Shown here: positions 3,883 through 12,788 of the stretch, one piece after another
Position numbering within the stretch: position 1 is the stretch's first letter
How the letters are laid out: each line of letters begins with the position of its first letter
From: Clostridia bacterium
Lineage (GTDB): Bacteria > Bacillota > Clostridia > Christensenellales > CAG-138
Length of the DNA: 64,000 nt
Direction: 5' to 3'
Assembly (NCBI GenBank): GCA_030527115.1
Contig: JAUNBM010000004.1
Coordinates: 1,153 to 65,152 of the forward strand
Position numbers and translations under genes: made by a program
The notes under the pieces: model-generated
What the model was told of the DNA's origin: nothing
The model's input: the letters and a program-made list of their open reading frames with translations, nothing else
Database searches by the model: none

Positions 3883-4061
3883 TGTATAAACGCCGTATAT
3901 ACAGCGAAAAAACGGTGTATAAAGCTAAAATGGTAGTAAGATGGTAGTAAGCACTTACTACCAAGTGAAAAAAGAAAAACCCCGAAAGCGGCTTGCTGTC
4001 AGGGTTTCTATGTGGCTGCGGAACTAGGATTTGAACCTAGACAATACGAGTCAGAGTCGTA
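3883..4061. repeat. left copy of island-flanking direct repeat (att-like), with the last 49 nt of tRNA-Gln at 4013-4061
   Basis: Aligned by eye to 12391-12571 at roughly 90% identity. Positions 4013-4061 are identical to the 3' 49 nt of the intact tRNA-Gln gene. Confidence 0.85.
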
Positions 4062-4586
4062 ATGAAGAACGGAAAAGCGCTCTCTCTGAGTGACTTTTTC
4101 CCGCAATTACCATCATTTTAGTTTGATGAAAAACACCACATAACTCTGAGGGAGTGGCTGTGTAGTAGTAAGTTGGTAGTAATCAGCTTTTATGCAAATT
4201 CTATACTACCATGTTTCGGCTGGTATTTTTGAAAATCGCATTGCGTCATTTCAAAGATCCGCGCCACACACGATTAAAAGCCTGTGACACAACATTGTCA
4301 TAGACGGGTCACTTGCGAATTGATAAAATAATATCGTAAAATCCTATACCCGCAAATCGGATAATTCGTCCCAAAAGAGATGTAGGACGCTCCTCGCATC
4401 CCTTTTTCGGCGATTCAAGCTAAGGAGAAAGTATGGAACAGTATAATTGCTTAACCTGCGTGTGGAAAACGGCCGTTATTGCGGAAAATCATGTACTTTG
4501 TTTCTTCCCCAAATGCGTTCACGAAATCGCTGCCACGCCCAGCAGTGGAAGAAGTGAGCCTCAAAGCGAAGGAGGAAACACTCAAA

Positions 4587-5975
4587 ATGAAGGGCATAAT
4601 ACTACTTGCCGCATGTGCAATTCTGATGATTTGCACGACATTGATTTTTACGAGAAGAAGTAAAAATATCGAATCTTTCCATGTGGCGAATCGAAAACTC
4701 GGCACATTCAGCTCCGCAATGTCTATTGCAGCCACATGGATTTGGGCACCCGCACTATTAGTATCGGCAGAACAGGCGTACAAAAATGGACTGCCTGGGC
4801 TGTTCTGGTTTTTGGTGCCTAATGTGCTTTGCTTGCTTATTTTTATCCCATTCGCAAAGCGCATCCGGAAAGATATGCCTCATGGCATCACCCTATCGGG
4901 ATATATGGGTGAAAAATACAAGTCGAAGAAGGTAAAAGGTGTTTATATCGCCCTGCTTGGAGGACTATCAATCCTATCAACGGGCGTTCAGCTTCTTGCC
5001 GGAGCGAAGATAATAACCATGGTTACCGATTTGCCTTTCTTTGCAGTAACGGTAGCTCTCGCTTTAATCACCTTCTTGTACTCCCAGTTCTCTGGAATTC
5101 GCGCATCAGTCATGACGGATGTTGTGCAAATGCTGATAATGCTTGTTGGGTGCGCCCTCTTCGTTCCGTGGGCCTTATCTTCCGGTAGCGGATTGCAAGA
5201 TTTCGTTGCCGGCATAAGCAACAGCACAAAATCAGGGCTCTTTTCGGAGCATGGCATAAGTGTACTACTGTCGTTTGGGCTTCCTACGGCCATCGGGTTA
5301 ATATCAGGTCCTTTCGGGGATCAGTGCTTTTGGCAACGGGCATTTGCTACAAGGTCAAGCAAAATTGGCAAAGCGTTTACCCTCGGTTCTGCCATTTTTG
5401 CTATCATCCCTCTGTCCATGGGCGTCTTGGGATTCGTTGCTTCCGGCAATGGCTCTTTCATCCCCACGGATACGGGCATAGTCAACCTCGAGCTGATTCA
5501 GCGCTTGTTTCCCGCATGGGCAACATTGCCCTTTGTATGTATGCTGATAGCAGGACTCATGTCAACGCTTGATAGCAACCTTTGCGCTGTAGCCTCCCTC
5601 ACTACCGACATCACAGACAAGCCCTCGCTCGGAAAATCAAAGGTTGCAATGGCTATCCTGCTTGTTGTTGGGATTGGAATTGCGAATATCCCCGGTCTTA
5701 CTGTAACGCACTTGTTCTTAATTTACGGCATCTTGCGTGCAACGACTTTGATTCCCACCGTTTTAACCTTAAAGGGCAAAAACCTGACCGCGAATGCCGT
5801 ATTTTCGGCGGTTTTATCCGCTTTGTGCATAGGTTTTCCTCTCTTTGCGATCGGAACATTGCGCAACATTTCAGCGTTGAAAATTGTTGGTTGCGTTTCA
5901 GTTTTATTGATAGGCCTTGTCACCTCCCTTGTTGTTTCAAAAATTGAATCTCGAAAGGAGGCGGCAAACCAATGA
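4587..5975 (+). CDS. sodium:solute symporter family (SSF) transporter
   Basis: About 13 hydrophobic segments. The N-terminal pattern (F.VANRKLG...SIAATWIWAPALLVSAEQAY) is typical of the SSF family. A strong SD aaggagg precedes the ATG at 4587. The stop overlaps the next start (ATGA). Confidence 0.8.
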   Translation: MKGIILLAACAILMICTTLIFTRRSKNIESFHVANRKLGTFSSAMSIAATWIWAPALLVSAEQAYKNGLPGLFWFLVPNVLCLLIFIPFAKRIRKDMPHGITLSGYMGEKYKSKKVKGVYIALLGGLSILSTGVQLLAGAKIITMVTDLPFFAVTVALALITFLYSQFSGIRASVMTDVVQMLIMLVGCALFVPWALSSGSGLQDFVAGISNSTKSGLFSEHGISVLLSFGLPTAIGLISGPFGDQCFWQRAFATRSSKIGKAFTLGSAIFAIIPLSMGVLGFVASGNGSFIPTDTGIVNLELIQRLFPAWATLPFVCMLIAGLMSTLDSNLCAVASLTTDITDKPSLGKSKVAMAILLVVGIGIANIPGLTVTHLFLIYGILRATTLIPTVLTLKGKNLTANAVFSAVLSALCIGFPLFAIGTLRNISALKIVGCVSVLLIGLVTSLVVSKIESRKEAANQ

Positions 5976-6583
5976 ACACGAAAATGGATGTGGTTCAAGT
6001 TCCGCTTGCATCGCTTAAACTTCGTGAGAAAAACACGAGGATTCATGCCGAAAAGCAGCTTCATGAGTTCGAGCGCAGCATAAAAATGTTCGGGCAGATA
6101 AGACCTATCGTTATAGACGAGGATAACGAGATTTTAGCAGGGAACGGATTGTATCTTGCTCTTAAAAGATTAAACTATGAAATGGCTGATTGCTATATCA
6201 TCTCTAATCTGACTGAAGCGCAAAAGAAAAAGCTGATGATTGCTGATAACAAGATATTCTCGCTCGGCATCGACAATCTTGCGGTGCTCGAGGAGTTTAT
6301 AAATGAGCTCGTTGGCGATTTGGATATCCCGGGATTCGACCCTGATATATTGGCAACCATGACCGAGGATGTAGAAGATGTCACTCGCCGTATCTGTGAT
6401 TATGGCGTTTTGAACGATGAAGATATTTCCGTCTTTGAGAGAAGCGCAAAAAGCGACGAAACGGCCAAAGTTGCAAATGCGCCATCGCAACCATTTAACC
6501 AAAGTCATTCAGATGAGCATGAGTCCACGGAAGTATCGTCATATGTGGTTTGCCCAAGATGCGGTGAAAAGATATGGCTATAA
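5972..6583 (+). CDS. ParB N-terminal (ParB/Srx fold) domain protein, IbrB/DndB-like, with C-terminal CxxC
   Basis: The sequence LREKNTRIH...SIKMFGQIRPIVIDEDNEILAGNGLYLALKRL...LMIADN matches the ParB-like domain seen in IbrB and phage ParB-methylase proteins. It is translationally coupled on both sides. Confidence 0.7.
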   Translation: MNTKMDVVQVPLASLKLREKNTRIHAEKQLHEFERSIKMFGQIRPIVIDEDNEILAGNGLYLALKRLNYEMADCYIISNLTEAQKKKLMIADNKIFSLGIDNLAVLEEFINELVGDLDIPGFDPDILATMTEDVEDVTRRICDYGVLNDEDISVFERSAKSDETAKVANAPSQPFNQSHSDEHESTEVSSYVVCPRCGEKIWL

Positions 6584-7335
6584 AGCGTCGCGTTTCAGGC
6601 ATTGATGTAGTGACGGCCGCACGTATTCGCATCAAAAATGCTTTCTCCAATGGCTTGCCCGTTTACCTGAGCTTTTCGGGCGGAAAAGACAGCCTTTGCC
6701 TTGCCGAAATCACACTCGACCTTATCAACAGCGGGGAGATTGACCCCTCCCTGCTGACGGTGATTTTCATTGACGAGGAGGCGATTTTCCCTTGTATCGA
6801 GCGAACGGTGAAAAAATGGCGTCAGAAATTTATGCTTGTAGGCGCCAAATTCATTTGGTACTGCTTAGAAGTCAAGCATTTCAACTGCTTCAACTCTCTT
6901 TCCGAAGATGAATCATTCTTTTGCTGGGACTCAACGAGAAAAGATGTTTGGGTCCGCAATATTCCATCATTCGCAATTACCGATCACCCCATGCTGAACA
7001 AGCGGGCTGACGATTATCAGGCTTTCCTGCACCGCTCGTGTAGTAACGGTGTTACACTTGTTGGTGTTCGAGCATATGAATCGCTACAACGCATGCAAAG
7101 TTTCGCAAGAATGGGCGAGGCCAAAATGCGAATAACATCGAACAGACATTTTTTCCCGCTTTACGATTGGCGCGATGCGGATATGAAGCTTTCTCCTATC
7201 TCTTTTGTTGACTTCTTTGTGATTTTGTATTCTTTGATAAACGCATATCGAAGCTCATACATGCGCAGTGCGATTTCACGGAGCTTGGATTTCTGTTCTT
7301 CTACCTTTGCGCGCATTGCCAACTCGGCGTTCTGA
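6574..7335 (+). pseudogene. PAPS reductase / PP-loop family protein, IbrA-like (DUF3440-type), C-terminally truncated
   Basis: The PP-loop SFSGGKDS is present, with FIDEEAIF, CWD....WVR, GVRAYESLQR and PLYDWRDAD blocks colinear with IbrA-type proteins as I recall them. Recognisable sequence stops near 7185. The rest of the ORF is antisense of the convergent parB gene. Confidence 0.65.
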
Positions 7336-8156
7336 CGCTCAGTTTCTTCATCGTCGATAACCCTGTCTTTGTACAGATATGCGCCACCCCATTCGTCAAT
7401 ATAGTAGTAGTATCGAATTTCATCTGTGTCTGCGGGAAGCGTCACATCCTCAAACTTTCTGAATATGGTGATATACGCAACGCGTTCCTTTGTATAATCG
7501 GCTTTTTCAAGACGTATTGCGAATTCAGAAAGCCTTTTATCCCAGCAAGCCTTTCTTTGGGCTTTCTCTTGGTTGTCGAGAGCTTTCTTTATCTCATACT
7601 CGAAATTCGATGTCCCTATTGCATCAAGAAGCTTGTTCCTCACTTTGATATCCTCAACCTTATTCAATCTATCAAGGTCGGTTAGGCTGAGTTGCCTCTG
7701 TGATGCTTTTTTCAGCTTGCCTTGGTCAAGCTCTATGAGCTTTATTCTGCGTCTGACAGTCGTTTGAGAGAATCCTGTTTTCTCTGAAATCATTTCTACC
7801 GAATCCCCGAAGTCAAGCATCATCTGAAAACCGTGCGCCTGCTCGATGATGGTTAAGTCGCTACGTTGAAGGTTCTCCGTCATCATCGTAGCAAGTTGCT
7901 CTTTCGGCGTCATGTAAGCCACTACACAAGGCAACACGGTCAGTCCCGCCTGCTTGGCGGCGGCAAGCCTGCGATGCCCAATTATTACCCTGTATTCTCC
8001 GACCTCTGTCGGGGACGGTACGACGGTGAGATTTTGTAGGATGCCGTTCACCTTGATGCTTTCCGCAAGCTCGGTCAAGTCGCCTAAGTCTTTGCGGGGG
8101 TTGTCCGGATGTGGGATCAGCCTGTCCGTGCTGATAAAAGTAATTTCCTGTTTCAT
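7161..8156 (-). CDS. ParB/Spo0J-family protein of the island
   Basis: It has the canonical ParB box (IIGHRRLAAAKQAG), an HTH (ISEKTGFSQTTVRRRIKL) and a Lys/Glu-rich coiled C-terminus. SD aggagg precedes MKQEITF. Confidence 0.85.
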   Translation of the reverse strand: MKQEITFISTDRLIPHPDNPRKDLGDLTELAESIKVNGILQNLTVVPSPTEVGEYRVIIGHRRLAAAKQAGLTVLPCVVAYMTPKEQLATMMTENLQRSDLTIIEQAHGFQMMLDFGDSVEMISEKTGFSQTTVRRRIKLIELDQGKLKKASQRQLSLTDLDRLNKVEDIKVRNKLLDAIGTSNFEYEIKKALDNQEKAQRKACWDKRLSEFAIRLEKADYTKERVAYITIFRKFEDVTLPADTDEIRYYYYIDEWGGAYLYKDRVIDDEETERQNAELAMRAKVEEQKSKLREIALRMYELRYAFIKEYKITKKSTKEIGESFISASRQS

Positions 8157-8317
8157 TTCATTTCCTCCTATTTTCTTTCCTCTCTGCAAGATATTGATAT
8201 ATGAGGACTATAGCCAATGAGTAAGATGCTATATAGGCTACTACCATGAGTGCTATAAATATAAACATTAGTTCTGTCCTCTAATATCTATAATAATCGT
8301 GTAACAGGGTGACTCGG

Positions 8318-8647
8318 CTATTGCTTGCCGGCGGCAACAGCCAACATCCTACGCTTACTCTCCTGGGCTCTGTCGGGAATGCGTTCCCCGATATAGTCAA
8401 AGAGCTTTGCGGCAGGATAGCGATAAGACCCGCGTGAACGCACGGCCGGGATGCGGCCTTCGCTAACCCATTTGCAGATGGTTTTCGGACATACTCCAAA
8501 TATTTCGGCGACCTGGCGAGTATTCAAAACCGTCATCTGCGCTTGAGATGTCGACACATGCTTTTCGAGCTCTTGAACCCGCTTGTGCAACGCAAGAAGC
8601 TCATCTGCACTCTCGGCAAGTACGGCCAACTTCTCGATATCGTTCAT
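8318..8647 (-). CDS. excisionase-type (MerR-like) HTH protein
   Basis: A coiled N-terminus is followed by LNTRQVAEIFGVCPKTICKWVSEGRIPAVR, which is typical of Xis/HTH_17 proteins. It overlaps the upstream gene by 4 nt. Confidence 0.65.
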   Translation of the reverse strand: MNDIEKLAVLAESADELLALHKRVQELEKHVSTSQAQMTVLNTRQVAEIFGVCPKTICKWVSEGRIPAVRSRGSYRYPAAKLFDYIGERIPDRAQESKRRMLAVAAGKQ

Positions 8648-8856
8648 CGGGCCGCCTCCTCTCTAATGCCAAGGTAGCGGCATATGCGATGCTTCGTATC
8701 TTCGCTTTCCCTGCGTCCGTTGAGAACGGATGTGACATGCTCGCGGGTTTGCCCAATCTGCGAGGCAAGCTCTATAATGGTCATGTCGCCCTGCTGGACC
8801 ATCGCAATCTTCGCTGCTACCTGCCAAGGTTCCAAGTCCTTTCGCTTTCTTTTCAT
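8644..8856 (-). CDS. small HTH protein, cro-like position
   Basis: A 70-aa ORF from MKRKRKD with SD aaaggag. It has an HTH-like segment (TIIELASQIGQTREHVTSVLNG) and is divergent from the repressor-like gene. Confidence 0.55.
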   Translation of the reverse strand: MKRKRKDLEPWQVAAKIAMVQQGDMTIIELASQIGQTREHVTSVLNGRRESEDTKHRICRYLGIREEAAR

Positions 8857-9111
8857 GATTTCACTCCTTTCTGTGGACTTTTTGCGAGAACCATGATACA
8901 ATTACAAAAGTAGTTGTATAAGGGGTAAGGGAAGCGGAACGCGCAAAGGCTGTGGAAGGACTATAGCGTGTCCCGCTCGGTGTAACCGTTGGAACGAGTT
9001 TTAGGCCTGTTCCCCTGTTACATTTGTAATTATATACCGACTAAATAGGGATGTCAATAGTTTTCCTCAAAATTTTTTAATTATTTTGTGGATTCCGAAA
9101 CGGAGGAGAAA

Positions 9112-9690
9112 ATGGGAAGATTCCATGACAATTTGCAAAAGTTGCTCGACAGTAGAGGAATAACATTTGCCGAACTCTCTCGGCAAACAGGCATAAGCAA
9201 AAATGGCCTGTCTTATTGGCGCAGTCAAGATATAATTCCATCTTCGAGGACGCTAAAACGCATCACGGATTATCTGGGCATAGAAAAAGAGGATCTTCTC
9301 GCTGCGCAAAACGAGGAGCTATCGGTCGAGGAAATGACTATTATTGAGAGGATTTCTTTTGAACTCGATAAGCGTAGATTGGCAGGTTCTAAGCTGTCAG
9401 AGTATTTGGGAACAAGTAATGCCCAATTTGCAGCATGGAAGCGACGCTCGACAGATCCGCCTGCGAAATATATGCCAAAGATAGCTCACTTTCTGGGTGT
9501 ATCATTAGAGTATTTGCTGACGGGAATTGATAGCGAGCTGTCGGGCGAAAGCAAAGGAGTTGCATACTCATCTTCCGGTGACGAGATTGAGCTATCCCCT
9601 GAGGAAATGGAACTTGCAAGATTAAGGGCGAATGATGCTCTTACACAGCGCATTAAAGAGGTCGTTGAGGACATATTAAAAAGCACTTAA
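9112..9690 (+). CDS. XRE-family regulator with two HTH domains (cI-like repressor position)
   Basis: There are two HTH_3-like repeats (ITFAELSRQTGISKNGLSYW and GSKLSEYLGTSNAQFAAW). SD ggagga precedes the ATG at 9112. Confidence 0.75.
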   Translation: MGRFHDNLQKLLDSRGITFAELSRQTGISKNGLSYWRSQDIIPSSRTLKRITDYLGIEKEDLLAAQNEELSVEEMTIIERISFELDKRRLAGSKLSEYLGTSNAQFAAWKRRSTDPPAKYMPKIAHFLGVSLEYLLTGIDSELSGESKGVAYSSSGDEIELSPEEMELARLRANDALTQRIKEVVEDILKST

Positions 9691-9708
9691 AGCTTGCAAG
9701 GAGGTAGC

Positions 9709-10515
9709 ATGATGAGAACCGCTTTACTTTTCTCCCTGATTGTACTGTTTGCATTTTGCACCGGTTGCGACACTTCAAGCCGAGAGAACACGGCTCGAAA
9801 TGAATTTATCTCGTTGCTGTCTGAAAAAGGCTGGGCCGATGTTTCTGTCTACATCTTGTCAGAAAGCGAGAACCCTATCATTTCACTAAGTTGCGCCGAT
9901 TGTGAAGCTCTTGAATTTGCCGACTTTTGTACAGCCGCATATGAGAGCTATCTAACTATAGCCGTTTCTCATAAGCTTACCGAGCTTGATCTGCGTTGCC
10001 ATATGGCTTCTCGCGAATGTAGCTGGACCGTTTCTTTCGATGAAGCCTCTGGGACATATAAAGTGCTTGATGGGGAGTATTATTTCGACTACACCATTGA
10101 CGATATTCGAGCGATGTATGAGGATGATGCTGGAGAGGTGGCATCCACTTTGAGTAGCATAGAAAATAGAATTTGCGATGAAATGCGTGATTACTATGGG
10201 TGGGATGTAATGTCCGTTGATGTCAGAAATTCAAGTGATGGAGAAAGCTTTATCGTCAATATTCTGTTTGATTCGGGGGATCCCGCTGTCTTTACTTCCA
10301 TCTGCGACGATGCCCTTGAAGCATCTTTTTCAGCCTGCGAAGAATTTGGGCGTCCCTGTTCTTTGCTAATGATTCTCATGCAAGGTGATGACTCTATCGG
10401 TCTGGAAGAAACGGCTTGGCTTACTACCAATGGCATCTCCGGAGTATTCAGCTATAACGGGGCTGATTACGACGATGTGACTATCGAGGAAATGGGGGAA
10501 ATGTTATCCCAATAA
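9709..10515 (+). CDS. lipoprotein, unknown function
   Basis: The signal peptide has a lipobox-like end (LFAFCTGC). SD aaggagg is present. The mature part is acidic and I recognise no family. Confidence 0.7.
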   Translation: MMRTALLFSLIVLFAFCTGCDTSSRENTARNEFISLLSEKGWADVSVYILSESENPIISLSCADCEALEFADFCTAAYESYLTIAVSHKLTELDLRCHMASRECSWTVSFDEASGTYKVLDGEYYFDYTIDDIRAMYEDDAGEVASTLSSIENRICDEMRDYYGWDVMSVDVRNSSDGESFIVNILFDSGDPAVFTSICDDALEASFSACEEFGRPCSLLMILMQGDDSIGLEETAWLTTNGISGVFSYNGADYDDVTIEEMGEMLSQ

Positions 10516-10519
10516 AAAA

Positions 10520-10543
10520 CTGCCCACTATGGGGCAGCTTTTT
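10520..10543 (+). terminator. rho-independent terminator after the lipoprotein gene
   Basis: Stem CTGCCC/GGGCAG (10520-10525 with 10532-10537) is followed by a T run at 10539-10543. Confidence 0.7.
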
Positions 10544-10833
10544 GAACAACGGCTACTTACGGGCGCCTAAGATAGCCAATACACTTGATAATTCCCCCAC
10601 GGGAGGAATTAGAGCCAAAGTTTCCTGTTCCAAGCTGGAGCAGCTGCGGTTAACTGCAATGCAGTTTTCCCATTCAATAAGCAACAGGTCGCAACGTTCA
10701 GGAAAGTCGATTAGTACCACGCGTTTGATGTTGCACCTCCTTATTGAGCTGACGGGTGCAAAGATAATTCTATCAAAGGGGTGATTTCTTTTCAAGGGTG
10801 TAAATATGTAATACTGATAAGTATTACTATATT

Positions 10834-10856
10834 TCAATCTCAATCTCAATCTCAAT
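10834..10856. repeat. hexamer tandem repeat (TCAATC)x3.8
   Basis: Read directly from the sequence: tcaatc tcaatc tcaatc tcaat. It is preceded by the perfect palindrome GTAATACTgataAGTATTAC at 10808-10827. Confidence 0.9.
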
Positions 10857-11133
10857 ATGCTTTGCTTTGGTTTTTTTGCTTTTTTCAAAAACCTTTTGGT
10901 TTCCAAAAAAGAGAGGTTTCTACGATTTTTATATTAAGGAGGTGACAGAAATAGAGGGAAATGGGGCAAAATAAGCAAAAATGATGTTCACTTTTTCCTT
11001 TCAAAAAACATTACCCGAAAACAAAAAAACCAAATGGAAGAAGAAAAACCAAATGGTTTTGTCGCTCTGCAAGCTCGCCCGACCAATCATGCCTTGTCAC
11101 CCTGTTACAAAATTCGACAAGGAGATTATTGTT

Positions 11134-12273
11134 ATGCCTATTCCAAAAATTCATCGTCGTGCCAACGGCACCTATTACTGCTCCCCTTATTTTGGGGGGA
11201 AGCGAATGAGCATCTACGGAAAGACCCCCGAAGAGGTTGAAAAGAAGTATATCAAGCTATGTTATGAGTACGGAACCGGGGTTAGAGTGAGCGAGAAAAT
11301 TACGCTTGCTGATTACATGCGCAGTTGGCTCTCTATCCGCAAGGACACCATCGCTCCTTATACCTATACTGGCTACAAGAACAACATAGAGAATCACATA
11401 GTCCCCTACATTGGGAATCTCTTCCTGCAAGACATTAAAGCGGAGCAGATAAAATCACTATACAACAAACTGCGAAAAGAAGGCTCAAAAAAAGATAACA
11501 AGGGACTCAGCGGAACAAGCATTCTTTATGTTCATAGGGTTCTCAATATGGCTTTCAAAGATGCTGTGAACAGCAACTTGATCCCAAGGAACCCGGTTAG
11601 CACCATAAAGGCTCCTGCACGAAATAACTATAAGCCACAGGCTACAGATGAAGAGGGCTTGAAACGGTTTTTAGACATTATTAAAGGTGAGGAGTACGAG
11701 GTTGCCGCCCATTTGGCAATTGCGCTTGGTGCTCGACGAGGCGAGCTGTGCGGTCTGCAATGGGACGATATTGACTTTGAAAAGAAATTAGCTATTATAC
11801 GCCGAGCGATATCCCAGACAAGCGAAGCCGGCATTATAGTAAAAACAGTAAAATCAGGCAAGGAGCGAATCGCGCCTATTCCTGACGGAACGCTACGACT
11901 TCTATCTTCTGAGATTAACCGTCAAAAAGTTAATCGAGAGATTATGGGTGCCGCATATCATGAGAACAGCTATATATGTGTTCACCGCGACGGAAAGCCA
12001 TTTACGCCATACTCATTGTCAATCAGTATTAACCACGCAATTAAAAAGGCGGGAATAACCATCACACTCAAGGACCTCCGAACAACATATGTTTCGTTGC
12101 AATACAAGTATGGTTCGGATTCTAAGGCAATAATGGGCGCCGTGGGGCATGCTTCTGAAAAGTTTGAGAGGGACAGATACCAATATGTCTACGACAGCAT
12201 GAAAAAGCAACTTGCCGATAATATTGATAAAAACATCTACGAAAGCGAATCCGATGAAAAGGGGAAGTTTTGA
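11134..12273 (+). CDS. tyrosine-type site-specific integrase
   Basis: It has an N-terminal SAM-like domain and a C-terminal catalytic region (ALGARRGELCGLQWDDID, LKDLRTTYVS, AVGHAS, a terminal Tyr region). SD aaggag precedes MPIPKI. It is adjacent to the tRNA att site. Confidence 0.9.
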   Translation: MPIPKIHRRANGTYYCSPYFGGKRMSIYGKTPEEVEKKYIKLCYEYGTGVRVSEKITLADYMRSWLSIRKDTIAPYTYTGYKNNIENHIVPYIGNLFLQDIKAEQIKSLYNKLRKEGSKKDNKGLSGTSILYVHRVLNMAFKDAVNSNLIPRNPVSTIKAPARNNYKPQATDEEGLKRFLDIIKGEEYEVAAHLAIALGARRGELCGLQWDDIDFEKKLAIIRRAISQTSEAGIIVKTVKSGKERIAPIPDGTLRLLSSEINRQKVNREIMGAAYHENSYICVHRDGKPFTPYSLSISINHAIKKAGITITLKDLRTTYVSLQYKYGSDSKAIMGAVGHASEKFERDRYQYVYDSMKKQLADNIDKNIYESESDEKGKF

Positions 12274-12390: not shown

Positions 12391-12571
12391 GTGCATAAAA
12401 CCGTGTATATACAGCGAAAAAACGGTGCATAAAGCTAAAATGGTAGTAAGATGGTAGTAAGCACTTACTACCATTAGAAAAAAGAAGAGCCCTGAAAGTG
12501 GCTAACTATCAGGGTTCTTCGGTGGCTGCGGAACTAGGATTTGAACCTAGACAATACGAGTCAGAGTCGTA
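12391..12571. repeat. right copy of island-flanking direct repeat, overlapping the 3' part of the intact tRNA-Gln
   Basis: Aligned by eye with 3883-4061. The tRNA part is identical, with scattered mismatches in the ~120 bp beyond the tRNA 3' end. Confidence 0.85.
12476..12520 (-). terminator. terminator downstream of tRNA-Gln
   Basis: Stem 12484-12495 with 12509-12520 (GAAGAGCCCTGA/TCAGGGTTCTTC, one mismatch) is followed on the minus strand by a T run (plus-strand A run at 12476-12483). Confidence 0.7.
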
Positions 12572-12596
12572 GGTGCTACCATTACACAATTCCGCA
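12523..12596 (-). tRNA. tRNA-Gln, anticodon CUG
   Basis: Folded by hand. The acceptor stem is UGCGGAA/UUCCGCA with U1-A72, the D stem is GUGU/GCAC, the anticodon stem is UACGA/UCGUA with loop CUCUGAC, the T arm is CUAGG-UUCAAAU-CCUAG, and CCA is encoded. Confidence 0.9.
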
Positions 12597-12788
12597 TTTT
12601 TTCCCGAAAAATCCCGAGATGCCGTCCGCCTGAGTGATAACACCCGCCTCTCGGCAGGTTTGGGTGCCGAGTGTTGCCTTCAACCTTCCCGTCGAAGCGG
12701 GCTTGACTTCCGGCGAACAACGTCAGCTCCCGCTGTATCAATGTGGGTTTATCACAAAAAACGTAACGCACACCGCAGGATTTCCGTT

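What the first reader, a model, noticed from the sequence alone, without database searches (positions are those of the whole stretch)
4587..7335. Translationally coupled symporter / IbrB-like ParB-domain / IbrA-like PP-loop operon carried as island cargo
Three genes are stitched together by overlapping stop and start codons: ATGA at 5972-5975, and a 10-nt overlap at 6574-6583. The genes are an SSF Na+/solute symporter, a small ParB/Srx-fold protein, and a PAPS-reductase-family PP-loop protein (SFSGGKDS) that is colinear with IbrA/DUF3440-type proteins. ParB-domain plus PP-loop pairs are the DndB/DndC and IbrB/IbrA architecture. The IbrAB-type pair is widespread in prophages and islands, and I know of no defined biochemistry for it. 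I do not know of a described version hard-wired to a dedicated solute importer. The coupling suggests that an imported small molecule feeds a nucleic-acid or metabolite modification reaction, which would make this a candidate modification or defence-type module. The caveat is that the PP-loop gene is truncated here, so this copy is probably inactive. Its value is as a pointer to intact relatives.
Basis: partly seen in the sequence, partly recalled or inferred. Interest (0 to 1): 0.7.

Follow-up and report, generated by a model that had tools for sequence, protein, structure and literature searches.

The report
Dead stump of phage transporter–ParB–IbrA cassette
The three overlapping genes are real, but they are the broken front end of a four-to-five-gene cassette (membrane importer, one or two ATP-using PP-loop enzymes, two ParB-like proteins) that opens the DNA-packaging operon of hundreds of gut Clostridia phages; nobody has worked out its chemistry, and the copy here is inactive.

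Summary
An SSF symporter (4587-5975), a ParB-like Zn-ribbon protein (5972-6583) and a PP-loop IbrA-like gene (from 6574) overlap by 4 and 10 nt. IbrA homology stops at codon ~205.

The genes lie in an 8.5-kb prophage remnant integrated in tRNA-Gln, bounded by 50-bp att repeats. There the IbrA stump abuts a second truncated gene tail-to-tail.

In 134 of 136 related loci with enough sequence, the symporter is followed by [a 260-aa PP-loop protein in ~90% of them] > ParB-Zn > IbrA > IbrB. TerS is then the first sizeable ORF after IbrB in 67 of 71 loci examined. All five genes have dN/dS of 0.04-0.09.

Two corrections are needed. The window's ParB is not the IbrB counterpart; the true IbrB lies downstream of IbrA and is lost here. 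The module is the head of a temperate-phage late operon, not defence-island cargo.

IbrA is not CysH or DndC by curated thresholds.

The mechanism is inferred: an imported precursor plus PP-loop adenylation, directed to phage DNA by the ParB proteins around the time of packaging. I found no paper describing the cassette, although FP_Taranis gp35-38 carries it.

I class it as a new variant of the uncharacterised IbrAB kind. Its value is as a pointer to intact, culturable relatives.

The parts
4012..4061 (.). Left att core: a 50-bp perfect direct repeat of the 3' part of tRNA-Gln. It marks the left boundary of the prophage remnant.
   Evidence: Identical to 12522-12571. GC falls from about 54% to 44-47% between the repeats.
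4313..4402 (+). Remnant of the cassette's leader. It holds a promoter-like TTGCGA-18-TAAAAT (4313-4342) and a GC hairpin (4384-4402). No activator gene remains upstream.
   Evidence: The conserved TAAAAT block, a sigma-70-like promoter and a terminator-like hairpin occur in related leaders. No RinA-like hit exists in the window.
4587..5975 (+). SSF-family symporter, 462 aa and intact. It belongs to a small clade found almost only in phages and prophages.
   Evidence: Pfam SSF 81.8 bits. phrog_20720 2e-159. 163 viral contigs and 163 genome stretches encode relatives. It departs from 7 of 131 near-invariant family positions.
5972..6583 (+). ParB/Srx-fold protein with a C-terminal CxxC Zn-ribbon ('ParB-Zn'), 203 aa and intact. 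It is not the IbrB orthologue.
   Evidence: phrog_620 6e-48, and a match to the N-terminal ParB domain of a ParB-methyltransferase model (PDLC03229, 3e-15). All 39 near-invariant residues are kept. hhalign to E. coli IbrB gives only 27%.
6574..7190 (+). N-terminal ~205 codons of an IbrA-type PP-loop ATP pyrophosphatase (FSGGKDS). The C-terminal ~180 codons are lost. The ORF reads on to 7335 through unrelated sequence.
   Evidence: The NCBIfam CysH, CysD and DndC cut-offs are not met.
7161..8189 (-). Large ParB_N+HTH_ParB protein of the phage early region. It is also truncated, lacking 123-183 C-terminal residues, and meets the IbrA stump tail-to-tail at about 7186-7192.
   Evidence: Pfam and PHROG hits. 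Relatives continue 123-183 aa past its residue ~333 and lie about 3 kb upstream of the symporter on the same strand in intact phages.
8318..12273 (.). Rest of the remnant: an HTH_17 excisionase-like gene (8318-8647, -), a cro-like gene (8644-8901, -), a CI-like repressor (9088-9690, +), a 273-aa ORF (9694-10515, +) and a tyrosine integrase (10981-12273, +).
   Evidence: Pfam.
12522..12596 (-). Right att core (12522-12571) lying within tRNA-Gln (12523-12596).

Best explanation
What is shown. Window 4587-7190 is the 5' stump of a conserved phage cassette. The cassette order is: SSF-type transporter, then an optional 260-aa PP-loop protein, then ParB-Zn, then IbrA (PP-loop plus DUF3440-like domain), then IbrB (ParB/Srx plus HTH). 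In relatives it opens the late/packaging operon of temperate Clostridia phages, directly upstream of terS. Here it lies in an 8.5-kb decayed prophage in tRNA-Gln. A rearrangement has fused IbrA codon ~205 tail-to-tail to a truncated early-region ParB gene. IbrA's C-terminal half, IbrB, the activator and the terminase are gone, so this copy cannot carry out the cassette's function.

What is inferred. In intact phages the transporter is made late in infection and imports a small molecule that the Clostridial host does not supply in sufficient amount. The PP-loop enzymes use ATP to adenylate a substrate, which is the chemistry common to this fold. The two ParB-like proteins direct the reaction to DNA. 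The likely result is a covalent modification of phage DNA as it is replicated and packaged, which would serve to evade host restriction or defence in the next infection. The substrate is unknown.
For: Identity and architecture (shown):
- The cassette is present in 68 of 68 viral loci and 66 of 68 genome loci baited with the symporter, and in 56 of 58 IbrA-baited loci.
- The gene overlaps are conserved.
- Median dN/dS is 0.04-0.09 for all five genes.
- TerS is the first ORF of 100 aa or more after IbrB in 67 of 71 loci, across different TerS types.
- Truncation, junction and att repeats.

Functional linkage of importer and PP-loop enzymes (strong inference):
- The partnership survives reshuffling of gene order in distant lineages: ParB>SSF>IbrA>IbrB, SSF>x>ParB>IbrB>IbrA, and tandem SSF copies.
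- The shorter membrane proteins of FP_Taranis (gp35) and the L323 lineage occupy the same slot and are homologous to the symporter's N-terminal two-thirds (hhalign 96%, E 1.5e-9).
- In still more distant phages the same symporter clade is followed by a different PP-loop family. That family has an invariant SGGxDS motif, a model with pLDDT 90, and best folds to asparagine-synthetase-like enzymes.
- In T4-like phages that second family is instead next to an unrelated TctA transporter, between the terS-like gene and terL.

DNA as the target (weaker inference):
- ParB-Zn most resembles the ParB domain fused to phage DNA methyltransferases (PDLC03229 3e-15, phrog_498 8e-30).
- IbrB carries ParB/Srx motifs (DGFHR, HNRARG.H) plus an HTH.
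- From established knowledge and PMC12839542: DndB/DndC, SspD, BrxP and DpdB show that ParB-like and PAPS-reductase-like proteins act in DNA modification.
- The IbrA model is a PP-loop fold nearest to nucleic-acid-modifying NcsA, TilS and TtuA, but the scores are low.
Against: - No experiment or direct signal shows that these phages' DNA is modified.
- The IbrA model has only moderate confidence (pLDDT 69). Its fold matches (TM about 0.3) do not separate nucleic-acid-modifying from small-molecule PP-loop enzymes.
- The ParB+IbrA(/IbrB) core occurs without any transporter in phages of Riemerella, Bacillus, Streptococcus and E. coli, so an imported substrate is not intrinsic to the core reaction.
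- The only published phenotype for IbrAB that I know of, recalled from memory and reflected in the 'co-activator of prophage gene expression' annotations, concerns gene expression, not DNA chemistry.
- Overlapping stop and start codons are common between unrelated phage genes, so the coupling alone proves little.
- No riboswitch or other clue names the ligand.
Confidence: 0.45

Rival explanations
1. Late-gene expression or packaging accessory. IbrA/IbrB and ParB-Zn act as co-activators of late transcription, or as ParB-type nickases or loaders that help the terminase, as HNH proteins do in cos phages. On this reading the PP-loop activity modifies a protein, tRNA or RNA needed for late expression, not the packaged DNA.
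For: The cassette always lies between a RinA-like late activator (where one was detected) and terS. The leader resembles a Q-type antitermination late promoter. E. coli-type IbrAB is annotated 'co-activator of prophage gene expression'; the underlying ECOR-9 eib study is recalled from memory. The nearest folds of IbrA include tRNA modifiers.
Against: This reading gives no role to a dedicated importer or to a second PP-loop enzyme. In S. thermophilus and E. coli phages IbrAB is not next to the terminase. The position may simply reflect late timing.
Confidence: 0.2
2. Small-molecule pathway. The importer brings in a metabolite, perhaps a carboxylate, which the PP-loop enzymes adenylate and convert into a cofactor, signal or anti-defence compound. 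The ParB/Srx proteins act as nucleotide-dependent enzymes or kinases, not as DNA binders.
For: The same symporter clade, and separately a TctA carboxylate-type transporter, pair with asparagine-synthetase-like PP-loop proteins, whose known relatives adenylate carboxylates. The PAPS_reduct fold includes FAD synthase and CysD, which act on small molecules. The ParB/Srx fold includes the serine kinase SerK; the large ParB-HTH at 7161-8189, not ParB-Zn, gave a weak SerK hit.
Against: ParB-Zn is closest to the ParB domains of DNA methyltransferases, and IbrB has an HTH. No further biosynthetic genes are conserved in the cassette.
Confidence: 0.17
3. Sulfur auxiliary metabolism. The transporter imports sulfate or an organosulfur compound, and the CysD/CysH-like PP-loop proteins boost host sulfur assimilation. 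This is how phage 'cysH' genes are usually read.
For: PHROG and GenBank call these proteins PAPS reductases. Kieft et al. (bioRxiv 10.1101/2021.01.05.425418) count phage cysH, including a DUF3440 clade, as sulfur auxiliary metabolic genes. There are weak CysD and CysH profile hits.
Against: Scores are 16-36 bits against curated cut-offs of 154-413. IbrA has no ECGLH catalytic motif and only one invariant Cys. Both PP-loop proteins keep a canonical ATP-binding SGGKDS motif. No CysN, CysC or sulfite reductase partners are present. The obligate ParB partners and late-operon placement are unexplained by this reading.
Confidence: 0.08
4. Prophage-encoded host defence or modification module, expressed in the lysogen to protect the host.
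For: The ParB plus PAPS-reductase pairing recalls Dnd, Ssp and BREX type 4 (PMC12839542). There is a weak BrxP hit (5e-4).
Against: There is no restriction or effector partner. The cassette is located inside the late operon, not at a moron site. No PADLOC system-level match was found.
Confidence: 0.05
5. The transporter is an unrelated moron that merely hitch-hikes next to IbrAB.
For: IbrAB cores exist without it. Gene overlaps are common in phages.
Against: Co-occurrence is 134 of 136 loci. It persists at about 25-30% transporter identity, through gene-order changes, and into a second PP-loop family. The clade is almost never found elsewhere: only 2,121 of 1.84e9 representatives reach E<=1e-3.
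Confidence: 0.05

Closest known systems
IbrA/IbrB of E. coli prophages and islands ('co-activators of prophage gene expression'; PAPS_reduct+DUF3440 with a ParB-like partner)
   Same: The cassette's IbrA aligns colinearly with E. coli-phage IbrA over 333 columns (99.9%). The gene downstream of it is a true IbrB homologue with shared NDYNPN, DGFHR and HNRARG.H motifs (99.8%). Both have the same IbrA>IbrB order with overlapping genes.
   Different: The Clostridia-phage version adds an upstream Zn-ribbon ParB, invariantly coupled to IbrA. It also adds a dedicated SSF-type importer, usually a second PP-loop protein, and a fixed position in front of terS. Pfam's DUF3440 model does not reach threshold on it. 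The window copy lacks IbrB and IbrA's C-terminal half.
DndB/DndC (and SspD, BrxP) DNA phosphorothioation modules
   Same: They pair a ParB/Srx-fold protein with a PAPS-reductase-fold PP-loop ATP pyrophosphatase. The 'DG.HR' motif of IbrB is of the same type as DndB's DGQHR; that comparison is from my own knowledge.
   Different: The TIGR03183 DndC model scores 23.5 bits against a cut-off of 290. There is no DndC-like cysteine set, only one invariant Cys. No cysteine desulfurase, DndD/E or restriction partner occurs among the conserved neighbours.
ParB-domain-fused phage DNA methyltransferases (phrog_498, PADLOC MTase_II)
   Same: The window's ParB-Zn matches their N-terminal ParB domain best (8e-30 and 3e-15). 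This suggests a DNA-directing module for a modification enzyme.
   Different: Here the ParB domain is a separate protein, translationally coupled to a PP-loop enzyme instead of being fused to a methyltransferase.
Dpd 7-deazaguanine DNA modification (DpdA/DpdB/DpdC with preQ0 supply genes or transporters)
   Same: The logic is similar: a ParB-like NTPase partner (DpdB), PP-loop chemistry in precursor synthesis (QueC), and sometimes a precursor transporter (background from PMC12839542 and my own knowledge).
   Different: No TGT/DpdA homologue was seen among the conserved cassette genes. The PP-loop proteins are of the PAPS_reduct type, not QueC. The transporter is SSF, not YhhQ or QueT.
Assimilatory CysH/CysD
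   Same: The fold class is the same.
   Different: All curated cut-offs are missed by a wide margin. The canonical SGGKDS ATP loop is retained, no ECGLH motif is present, and the partners and context differ.

Membership tests
Sodium:solute symporter family (Pfam PF00474 / TIGR00813) | Profile match above the curated threshold | tested here: met
   PF00474 scores 81.8 bits against a 22.8 gathering score. TIGR00813 scores 123 against a 184 cut-off, so that model is not met, and the PanF, PutP and ActP equivalogs are far below their cut-offs. It is an SSF member with no assignable substrate subfamily.
Sodium:solute symporter family | Na+-coupled uptake of a defined solute | not testable with these tools
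   I did no ion-site analysis or transport assay. No riboswitch or metabolic neighbour names a ligand.
IbrA (PAPS_reduct + DUF3440) | PP-loop SGGKDS motif and full-length colinear homology to E. coli-type IbrA | tested here: met
   FSGGKDS is invariant. hhalign gives 99.9%, E 1.5e-32, over columns 2-368 of the E. coli-phage IbrA. This applies to the family; the window copy keeps only residues 1 to ~205.
IbrA (PAPS_reduct + DUF3440) | Pfam DUF3440 (PF11922) domain hit | tested here: inconclusive
   The E. coli-phage IbrA hits PF11922 at 4.7e-33, but the cassette IbrA (L003, L001, Taranis) gives no hit at E<=0.1. Only profile-profile alignment covers the region.
IbrB | Homology of the window's ParB gene (5972-6583) to IbrB | tested here: not met
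   hhalign of E. coli IbrB against the ParB-Zn family gives 27%, E 7e-4. Against the ParB downstream of IbrA it gives 99.8%, E 9e-28. No IbrB homologue exists in the window.
DndC / DndB phosphorothioation | DndC equivalog score and Fe-S cysteines | tested here: not met
   TIGR03183 scores 23.5 bits against 290.4. IbrA has a single invariant Cys.
DndC / DndB phosphorothioation | Companion DndA/DndD/DndE or restriction genes | tested here: not met
   The conserved neighbours are an activator, the transporter, the PP-loop and ParB genes, and TerS/TerL only. I did not run a dedicated search for Dnd proteins.
CysH (PAPS/APS reductase) | Curated equivalog score and the C-terminal ECGLH catalytic Cys | tested here: not met
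   IbrA scores 21.5 bits (NF002537) and the 260-aa protein 18.8-27 bits on the four CysH/APS-reductase models, against cut-offs of 154-254. IbrA has no ECGLH. The 260-aa protein has an invariant CGTH at 214-217, which I judge from memory of CysH sequences to align with the 'GDTH / GC.PC' nucleotide-site motif, not with ECGLH.
Known anti-phage defence systems (PADLOC) | Match to a system component above noise | tested here: not met
   The only hits are a ParB-domain hit to an MTase model and BrxP at 5e-4 over 65 residues.
PP-loop ATP pyrophosphatase superfamily (for the SGGIDS partner family of distant phages) | Conserved SGGxDS motif and PP-loop synthetase fold | tested here: met
   The motif is invariant in 34 members. 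The model has pLDDT 90. The best folds are TsnB9, asparagine synthetase, beta-lactam synthetase, LarE and NadE, with E from 3e-4 and modest TM of 0.3-0.4.

The most novel reading that the evidence does not exclude
Many unrelated tailed phages carry, right beside their terminase genes, a two-part device: a dedicated importer (SSF-type, its shortened derivatives, or TctA) and PP-loop adenylating enzymes (IbrA/PAPS-reductase type with ParB partners, or asparagine-synthetase-like). On this reading, the device builds a so-far-unknown DNA hypermodification from a scavenged environmental metabolite at the time of packaging. IbrAB, long annotated as 'co-activators of prophage gene expression', would then be the core of a new DNA-modification chemistry.
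Probability: 0.25. Interest if true: 0.85.

Novelty: new variant of a known kind. Interest (0 to 1): 0.6.

Why it matters
IbrA/IbrB-type pairs (ParB with a PAPS-reductase-like protein) are among the commonest unexplained genes in phages. They are routinely mislabelled as sulfur-metabolism 'cysH' auxiliary genes or as partition proteins.

This work shows that in gut Clostridia phages the pair belongs to a larger cassette under strong purifying selection, wired to its own importer and placed in front of the packaging genes. The same pairing of importer and PP-loop enzyme recurs with other enzyme and transporter families in unrelated phages. Together these turn a vague annotation into a testable hypothesis: an imported precursor, ATP-dependent adenylation, and a modification made at the time of packaging.

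The work also identifies tractable systems to test it:
- FP_Taranis on Faecalibacterium prausnitzii.
- Prophages in Anaerotruncus colihominis DSM 17241.
- Prophages in Agathobaculum desmolans ATCC 43058.
- A prophage in Clostridioides difficile.

If the product is a DNA modification, it would bear on phage-host range in the gut, on sequencing and cloning biases, and on the interpretation of 'auxiliary metabolic genes' in viromes.

The window copy itself is a dead remnant and has no functional importance beyond being a pointer.

Tried and rejected
- **Riboswitch or other known RNA in the leader, to name the ligand.** Rfam found nothing in the window leader at E<=1 or in nine related loci at gathering threshold.
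- **FP_Taranis gp35 as a non-homologous replacement transporter.** Rejected. With a bridging sequence from the L323 lineage, it is homologous to the symporter's N-terminal two-thirds.
- **Sequence search of solved structures.** The IbrA, IbrB, ParB-Zn and 260-aa protein profiles gave only remote PP-loop or ParB hits.
- **IbrA structure.** The model has moderate confidence, and Foldseek gave only generic PP-loop folds, which do not identify the substrate.
- **Literature.** Nine searches (IbrA/IbrB/phage; PAPS reductase/ParB/terminase; DUF3440; Taranis; solute symporter/prophage; IbrB/DndB; PAPS reductase/ParB/DndC), one of them rejected for syntax, found no description of the cassette and no IbrAB biochemistry. 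Maindola et al. 2014 was not held.
- **Ordinary CysH, CysD or DndC.** Rejected on curated cut-offs and motifs.
- **Defence system.** No PADLOC support.
- **L165, which appears to lack a transporter.** It is a deletion variant with a fragment of the 260-aa gene.
- **Full-length IbrA from the word-indexed protein search.** The search returned mostly fragments, so I had to use the 357-aa lineage.
- **Not attempted.** I did not analyse Na+-site residues or search systematically for Dnd, Dpd or TGT partners.


Full report
**1. The observation**

| Gene | Coordinates | Size | Main evidence |
|---|---|---|---|
| SSF symporter | 4587-5975 | 462 aa | Pfam SSF 5.9e-23 |
| ParB-fold protein ending CPRCGEKIWL | 5972-6583 | 203 aa | ParB_N 9e-4; phrog_620 6e-48 |
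| PP-loop protein with FSGGKDS | 6574-7335 | 253 aa | PAPS_reduct 2.6e-6; phrog_2302 5e-55, profile positions 1-208 of 381 |

ATGA at 5972-5975 joins the first two genes, and a 10-nt overlap at 6574-6583 joins the second and third. Compared with an intact 384-aa relative, homology of the third gene ends at residue ~205, near nt 7190.

**2. The setting in the window**

The genes lie in a low-GC block (44-47% against about 54%). The block is bounded by a perfect 50-bp direct repeat, 4012-4061 = 12522-12571, which is the 3' part of tRNA-Gln.

Inside the block are a tyrosine integrase, a CI-like repressor, a cro-like gene, an excisionase-like HTH and a large ParB_N+HTH_ParB gene (7161-8189, minus strand). 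That last gene is also truncated, because relatives run on for 123-183 residues beyond its residue ~333. Two gene stumps therefore meet tail-to-tail at about 7186-7192.

In intact relatives the large ParB gene lies about 3 kb upstream of the symporter on the same strand. The window arrangement therefore needs an inversion plus a deletion. The window has no IbrB, no RinA-like activator and no terminase. This is an 8.5-kb decayed prophage.

**3. The intact unit**

The symporter matches a phage-only family over its full length (phrog_20720, 2e-159).

- Used as bait, it finds 163 viral contigs and 163 stretches in the one-genome-per-species collection, nearly all Clostridia. These include Oscillospiraceae, Lachnospiraceae, Anaerotruncus colihominis DSM 17241, Agathobaculum desmolans ATCC 43058 and Clostridioides difficile.
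- Of the loci with at least 3.6 kb of downstream sequence, 68 of 68 viral and 66 of 68 genomic loci show the same colinear order. The order is SSF, then a 260-aa PAPS_reduct protein, then ParB-Zn, then IbrA (~382 aa), then a 175-aa ParB. The 260-aa gene is present in 121 of these loci and absent in 13, as it is in the window.
- The first ORF of 100 aa or more after this block is a small terminase subunit in 67 of 71 loci, of at least two types.
- A RinA-like activator lies upstream in the loci where it was detectable.
- Baiting with IbrA finds at least 452 viral contigs. Of the closest loci with enough upstream sequence, 56 of 58 have the symporter.
- Gene junctions are conserved. ParB-Zn and IbrA overlap by 10 nt in 139 of 139 loci, IbrA and IbrB overlap in 130 of 138, and SSF and the next gene overlap in most.
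- All five genes are under purifying selection, with median dN/dS of 0.04-0.09.

The cultured phage FP_Taranis carries the cassette as gp35-gp38, annotated 'transporter membrane protein', ParB-like, PAPS reductase/IbrA and ParB-like/IbrB, just before terS. The papers on that phage do not mention it.

**4. Corrections to the labels**

An E. coli phage with annotated ibrA-ibrB allowed a direct test.

| Comparison | hhalign result |
|---|---|
| E. coli IbrA vs cassette IbrA | 99.9%, E 1.5e-32, 333 colinear columns including the DUF3440 region |
| E. coli IbrB vs the ParB downstream of IbrA | 99.8%, E 9e-28, shared NDYNPN, DGFHR and HNRARG.H motifs |
| E. coli IbrB vs the window-type ParB-Zn | 27%, E 7e-4 |

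The gene in the window is therefore a distinct ParB family. Its best matches are the N-terminal ParB domains of phage DNA methyltransferases (phrog_498 8e-30; PADLOC MTase_II 3e-15). The true IbrB has been lost from the window.

Neither PP-loop protein is a CysH, CysD or DndC. The best scores are 16-36 bits against curated cut-offs of 154-413. IbrA has one invariant cysteine and no ECGLH motif. The 260-aa protein has a canonical WSGGKDS motif and an invariant CGTH.

**5. The transporter slot**

FP_Taranis gp35 (333 aa) has no hit in Pfam, PHROGs or NCBIfam, yet it heads the same cassette in 70 of 72 loci.

A third lineage (L323) has a 304-aa membrane protein in the same slot. That protein carries SPFGDIQMWQRA, which is the symporter's GPFGDQCFWQRA motif. 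With this bridge, the short proteins align to the symporter family at 96% probability, E 1.5e-9. The slot is therefore homologous across lineages that have diverged to about 25% identity.

The clade is small and isolated. Only 2,121 of 1.84 billion representative proteins reach E<=1e-3.

Distant members at about 30% identity, many from samples outside the earlier gut sets, keep the partnership while shuffling gene order. Observed orders are ParB>SSF>IbrA>IbrB(>260-aa protein), SSF>x>ParB>IbrB>IbrA, and tandem SSF copies.

Nine distant loci seemed to have the symporter alone.

- In at least six of them it is followed by one or two copies of an unannotated 366-396-aa protein and then TerL.
- That protein family has an invariant SGGxDS motif.
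- Its model is confident (pLDDT 90), and its best structural matches are asparagine-synthetase-like PP-loop enzymes.
- In T4-like contigs, two copies of this family lie between the gp16-like gene and terL, next to a TctA-family transporter. TctA is an unrelated importer family.

Conversely, phages of Riemerella, Bacillus, Streptococcus and E. coli have ParB+IbrA(/IbrB) without any transporter.

**6. How it most likely works**

Shown:
- A conserved late-operon cassette that couples an importer to PP-loop and ParB proteins.
- The window copy is truncated and lacks essential partners.

Inferred:
- PP-loop enzymes share one chemistry, ATP-dependent adenylation of a substrate oxygen followed by substitution.
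- The importer probably supplies a co-substrate that Clostridial hosts do not provide. This would explain why the core exists without an importer in other hosts.
- ParB-Zn is of the methyltransferase-associated ParB type, and IbrB combines ParB/Srx with an HTH. These point to DNA as the target.
- Placement at the start of the packaging operon fits a modification made on DNA destined for virions.

I put about 0.95 on the identity and remnant part and about 0.35 on DNA modification specifically. The headline confidence of 0.45 is my single figure for the combined statement.

The rivals are a late-expression or packaging accessory (0.2), a small-molecule pathway (0.17), sulfur auxiliary metabolism (0.08), host defence (0.05) and a hitch-hiking moron (0.05). 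The IbrA model (pLDDT 69) and its fold matches (NcsA, TilS, TtuA, LarE, CysH, CysD, FAD synthase; TM about 0.3) confirm the fold class only. No riboswitch names the ligand.

**7. State of the window copy**

- ParB-Zn keeps all 39 near-invariant residues.
- The IbrA stump departs at 2 of 56 near-invariant positions.
- The symporter departs at 7 of 131. Family members average 0.84, with a maximum of 5, in leave-one-out tests.

The symporter result is compatible with relaxed constraint, but the window lineage is also an outlier, at no more than 67% identity to any relative.

The leader keeps a TTGCGA-18-TAAAAT promoter-like site and a hairpin, but the activator gene is gone. The same truncated IbrA product occurs on a second, independent 4.8-kb assembly (P0121).

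**8. Novelty and score**

The kind is known by name and is biochemically uncharacterised: IbrAB-type ParB/PP-loop pairs, relatives of DndB/DndC. I found no description of three things:
- the five-gene, importer-headed, terS-adjacent cassette;
- the distinction between ParB-Zn and IbrB;
- the wider recurrence of an importer with PP-loop enzymes next to terminase genes.

I rate it a new variant of a known kind, with interest 0.6. The copy in hand is dead, but the family is abundant, strongly conserved and has culturable members. It turns an old annotation puzzle into a set of direct experiments.

Noticed in passing
L337:2247-3404, L339:7289-9483, L385:5313-6503; L406:4094-6327 (proteins P0391-P0454): An unannotated family of 366-396-aa phage proteins has no Pfam or PHROG hit but carries an invariant SGGxDS motif and a confident asparagine-synthetase-like PP-loop fold. 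It lies next to the SSF-clade transporter before TerL. In T4-like contigs it lies next to a TctA transporter and an SNase, between the gp16-like gene and terL.
   Followed up: partly
Leaders upstream of the symporter in L003-L162 (e.g. L013:6876-6956, L004:6857-6882); window 4313-4402: The cassette's leader has a sigma-70-like -35/-10. A conserved -10-like TAAAAT follows 3-10 nt downstream (59 of 80 diverse leaders), then a terminator-like hairpin (45 of those 59, against 5% in shuffles). The layout recalls lambdoid Q-type late promoters (PR'/pause/tR'). If so, the 'RinA-like' gene may encode an antiterminator-type regulator.
   Followed up: partly
window 12607-12784 (-): A 6S RNA gene (Rfam RF00013, 74 bits, E 1e-13) lies between tRNA-Gln and tRNA-Val, immediately outside the prophage remnant's right att site.
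   Followed up: no
L323:1545-4886 (also L324, L325): One phage lineage carries three IbrA paralogues. Two DUF3440-positive copies with their own ParB lie upstream of the transporter-ParB-IbrA-IbrB block, which suggests diversification of this chemistry within a single genome.
   Followed up: no
L333:3895-6749 (also L334, L335): Two SSF-clade transporter genes lie in tandem ahead of ParB-Zn>IbrA>IbrB in environmental phage contigs.
   Followed up: no
window 4479-4587: The public annotation of this protein (P0001, NCBI MAG Clostridia bacterium Q4C04_01120, 494 aa) starts at ATG 4491. Family alignment and the AGGAGG site support ATG 4587 (462 aa).
   Followed up: yes
L137 and L155 (genome contigs): Two bacterial genomes carry the symporter without the rest of the cassette; L155 also has a partial 260-aa PP-loop gene. 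They are probably further decayed remnants like the window's.
   Followed up: no
L043:11626-11698: A tRNA gene is inserted between IbrB and TerS in one phage lineage.
   Followed up: no
L396:2022-3408 and L332:7191-8692: In two distant phage contigs the SSF-clade transporter is followed by a protein with a P-loop-like GPQGSGN motif and, in L332, by a methyltransferase-domain protein, with no recognisable PP-loop partner. These are exceptions to the importer/PP-loop rule and were not resolved.
   Followed up: no
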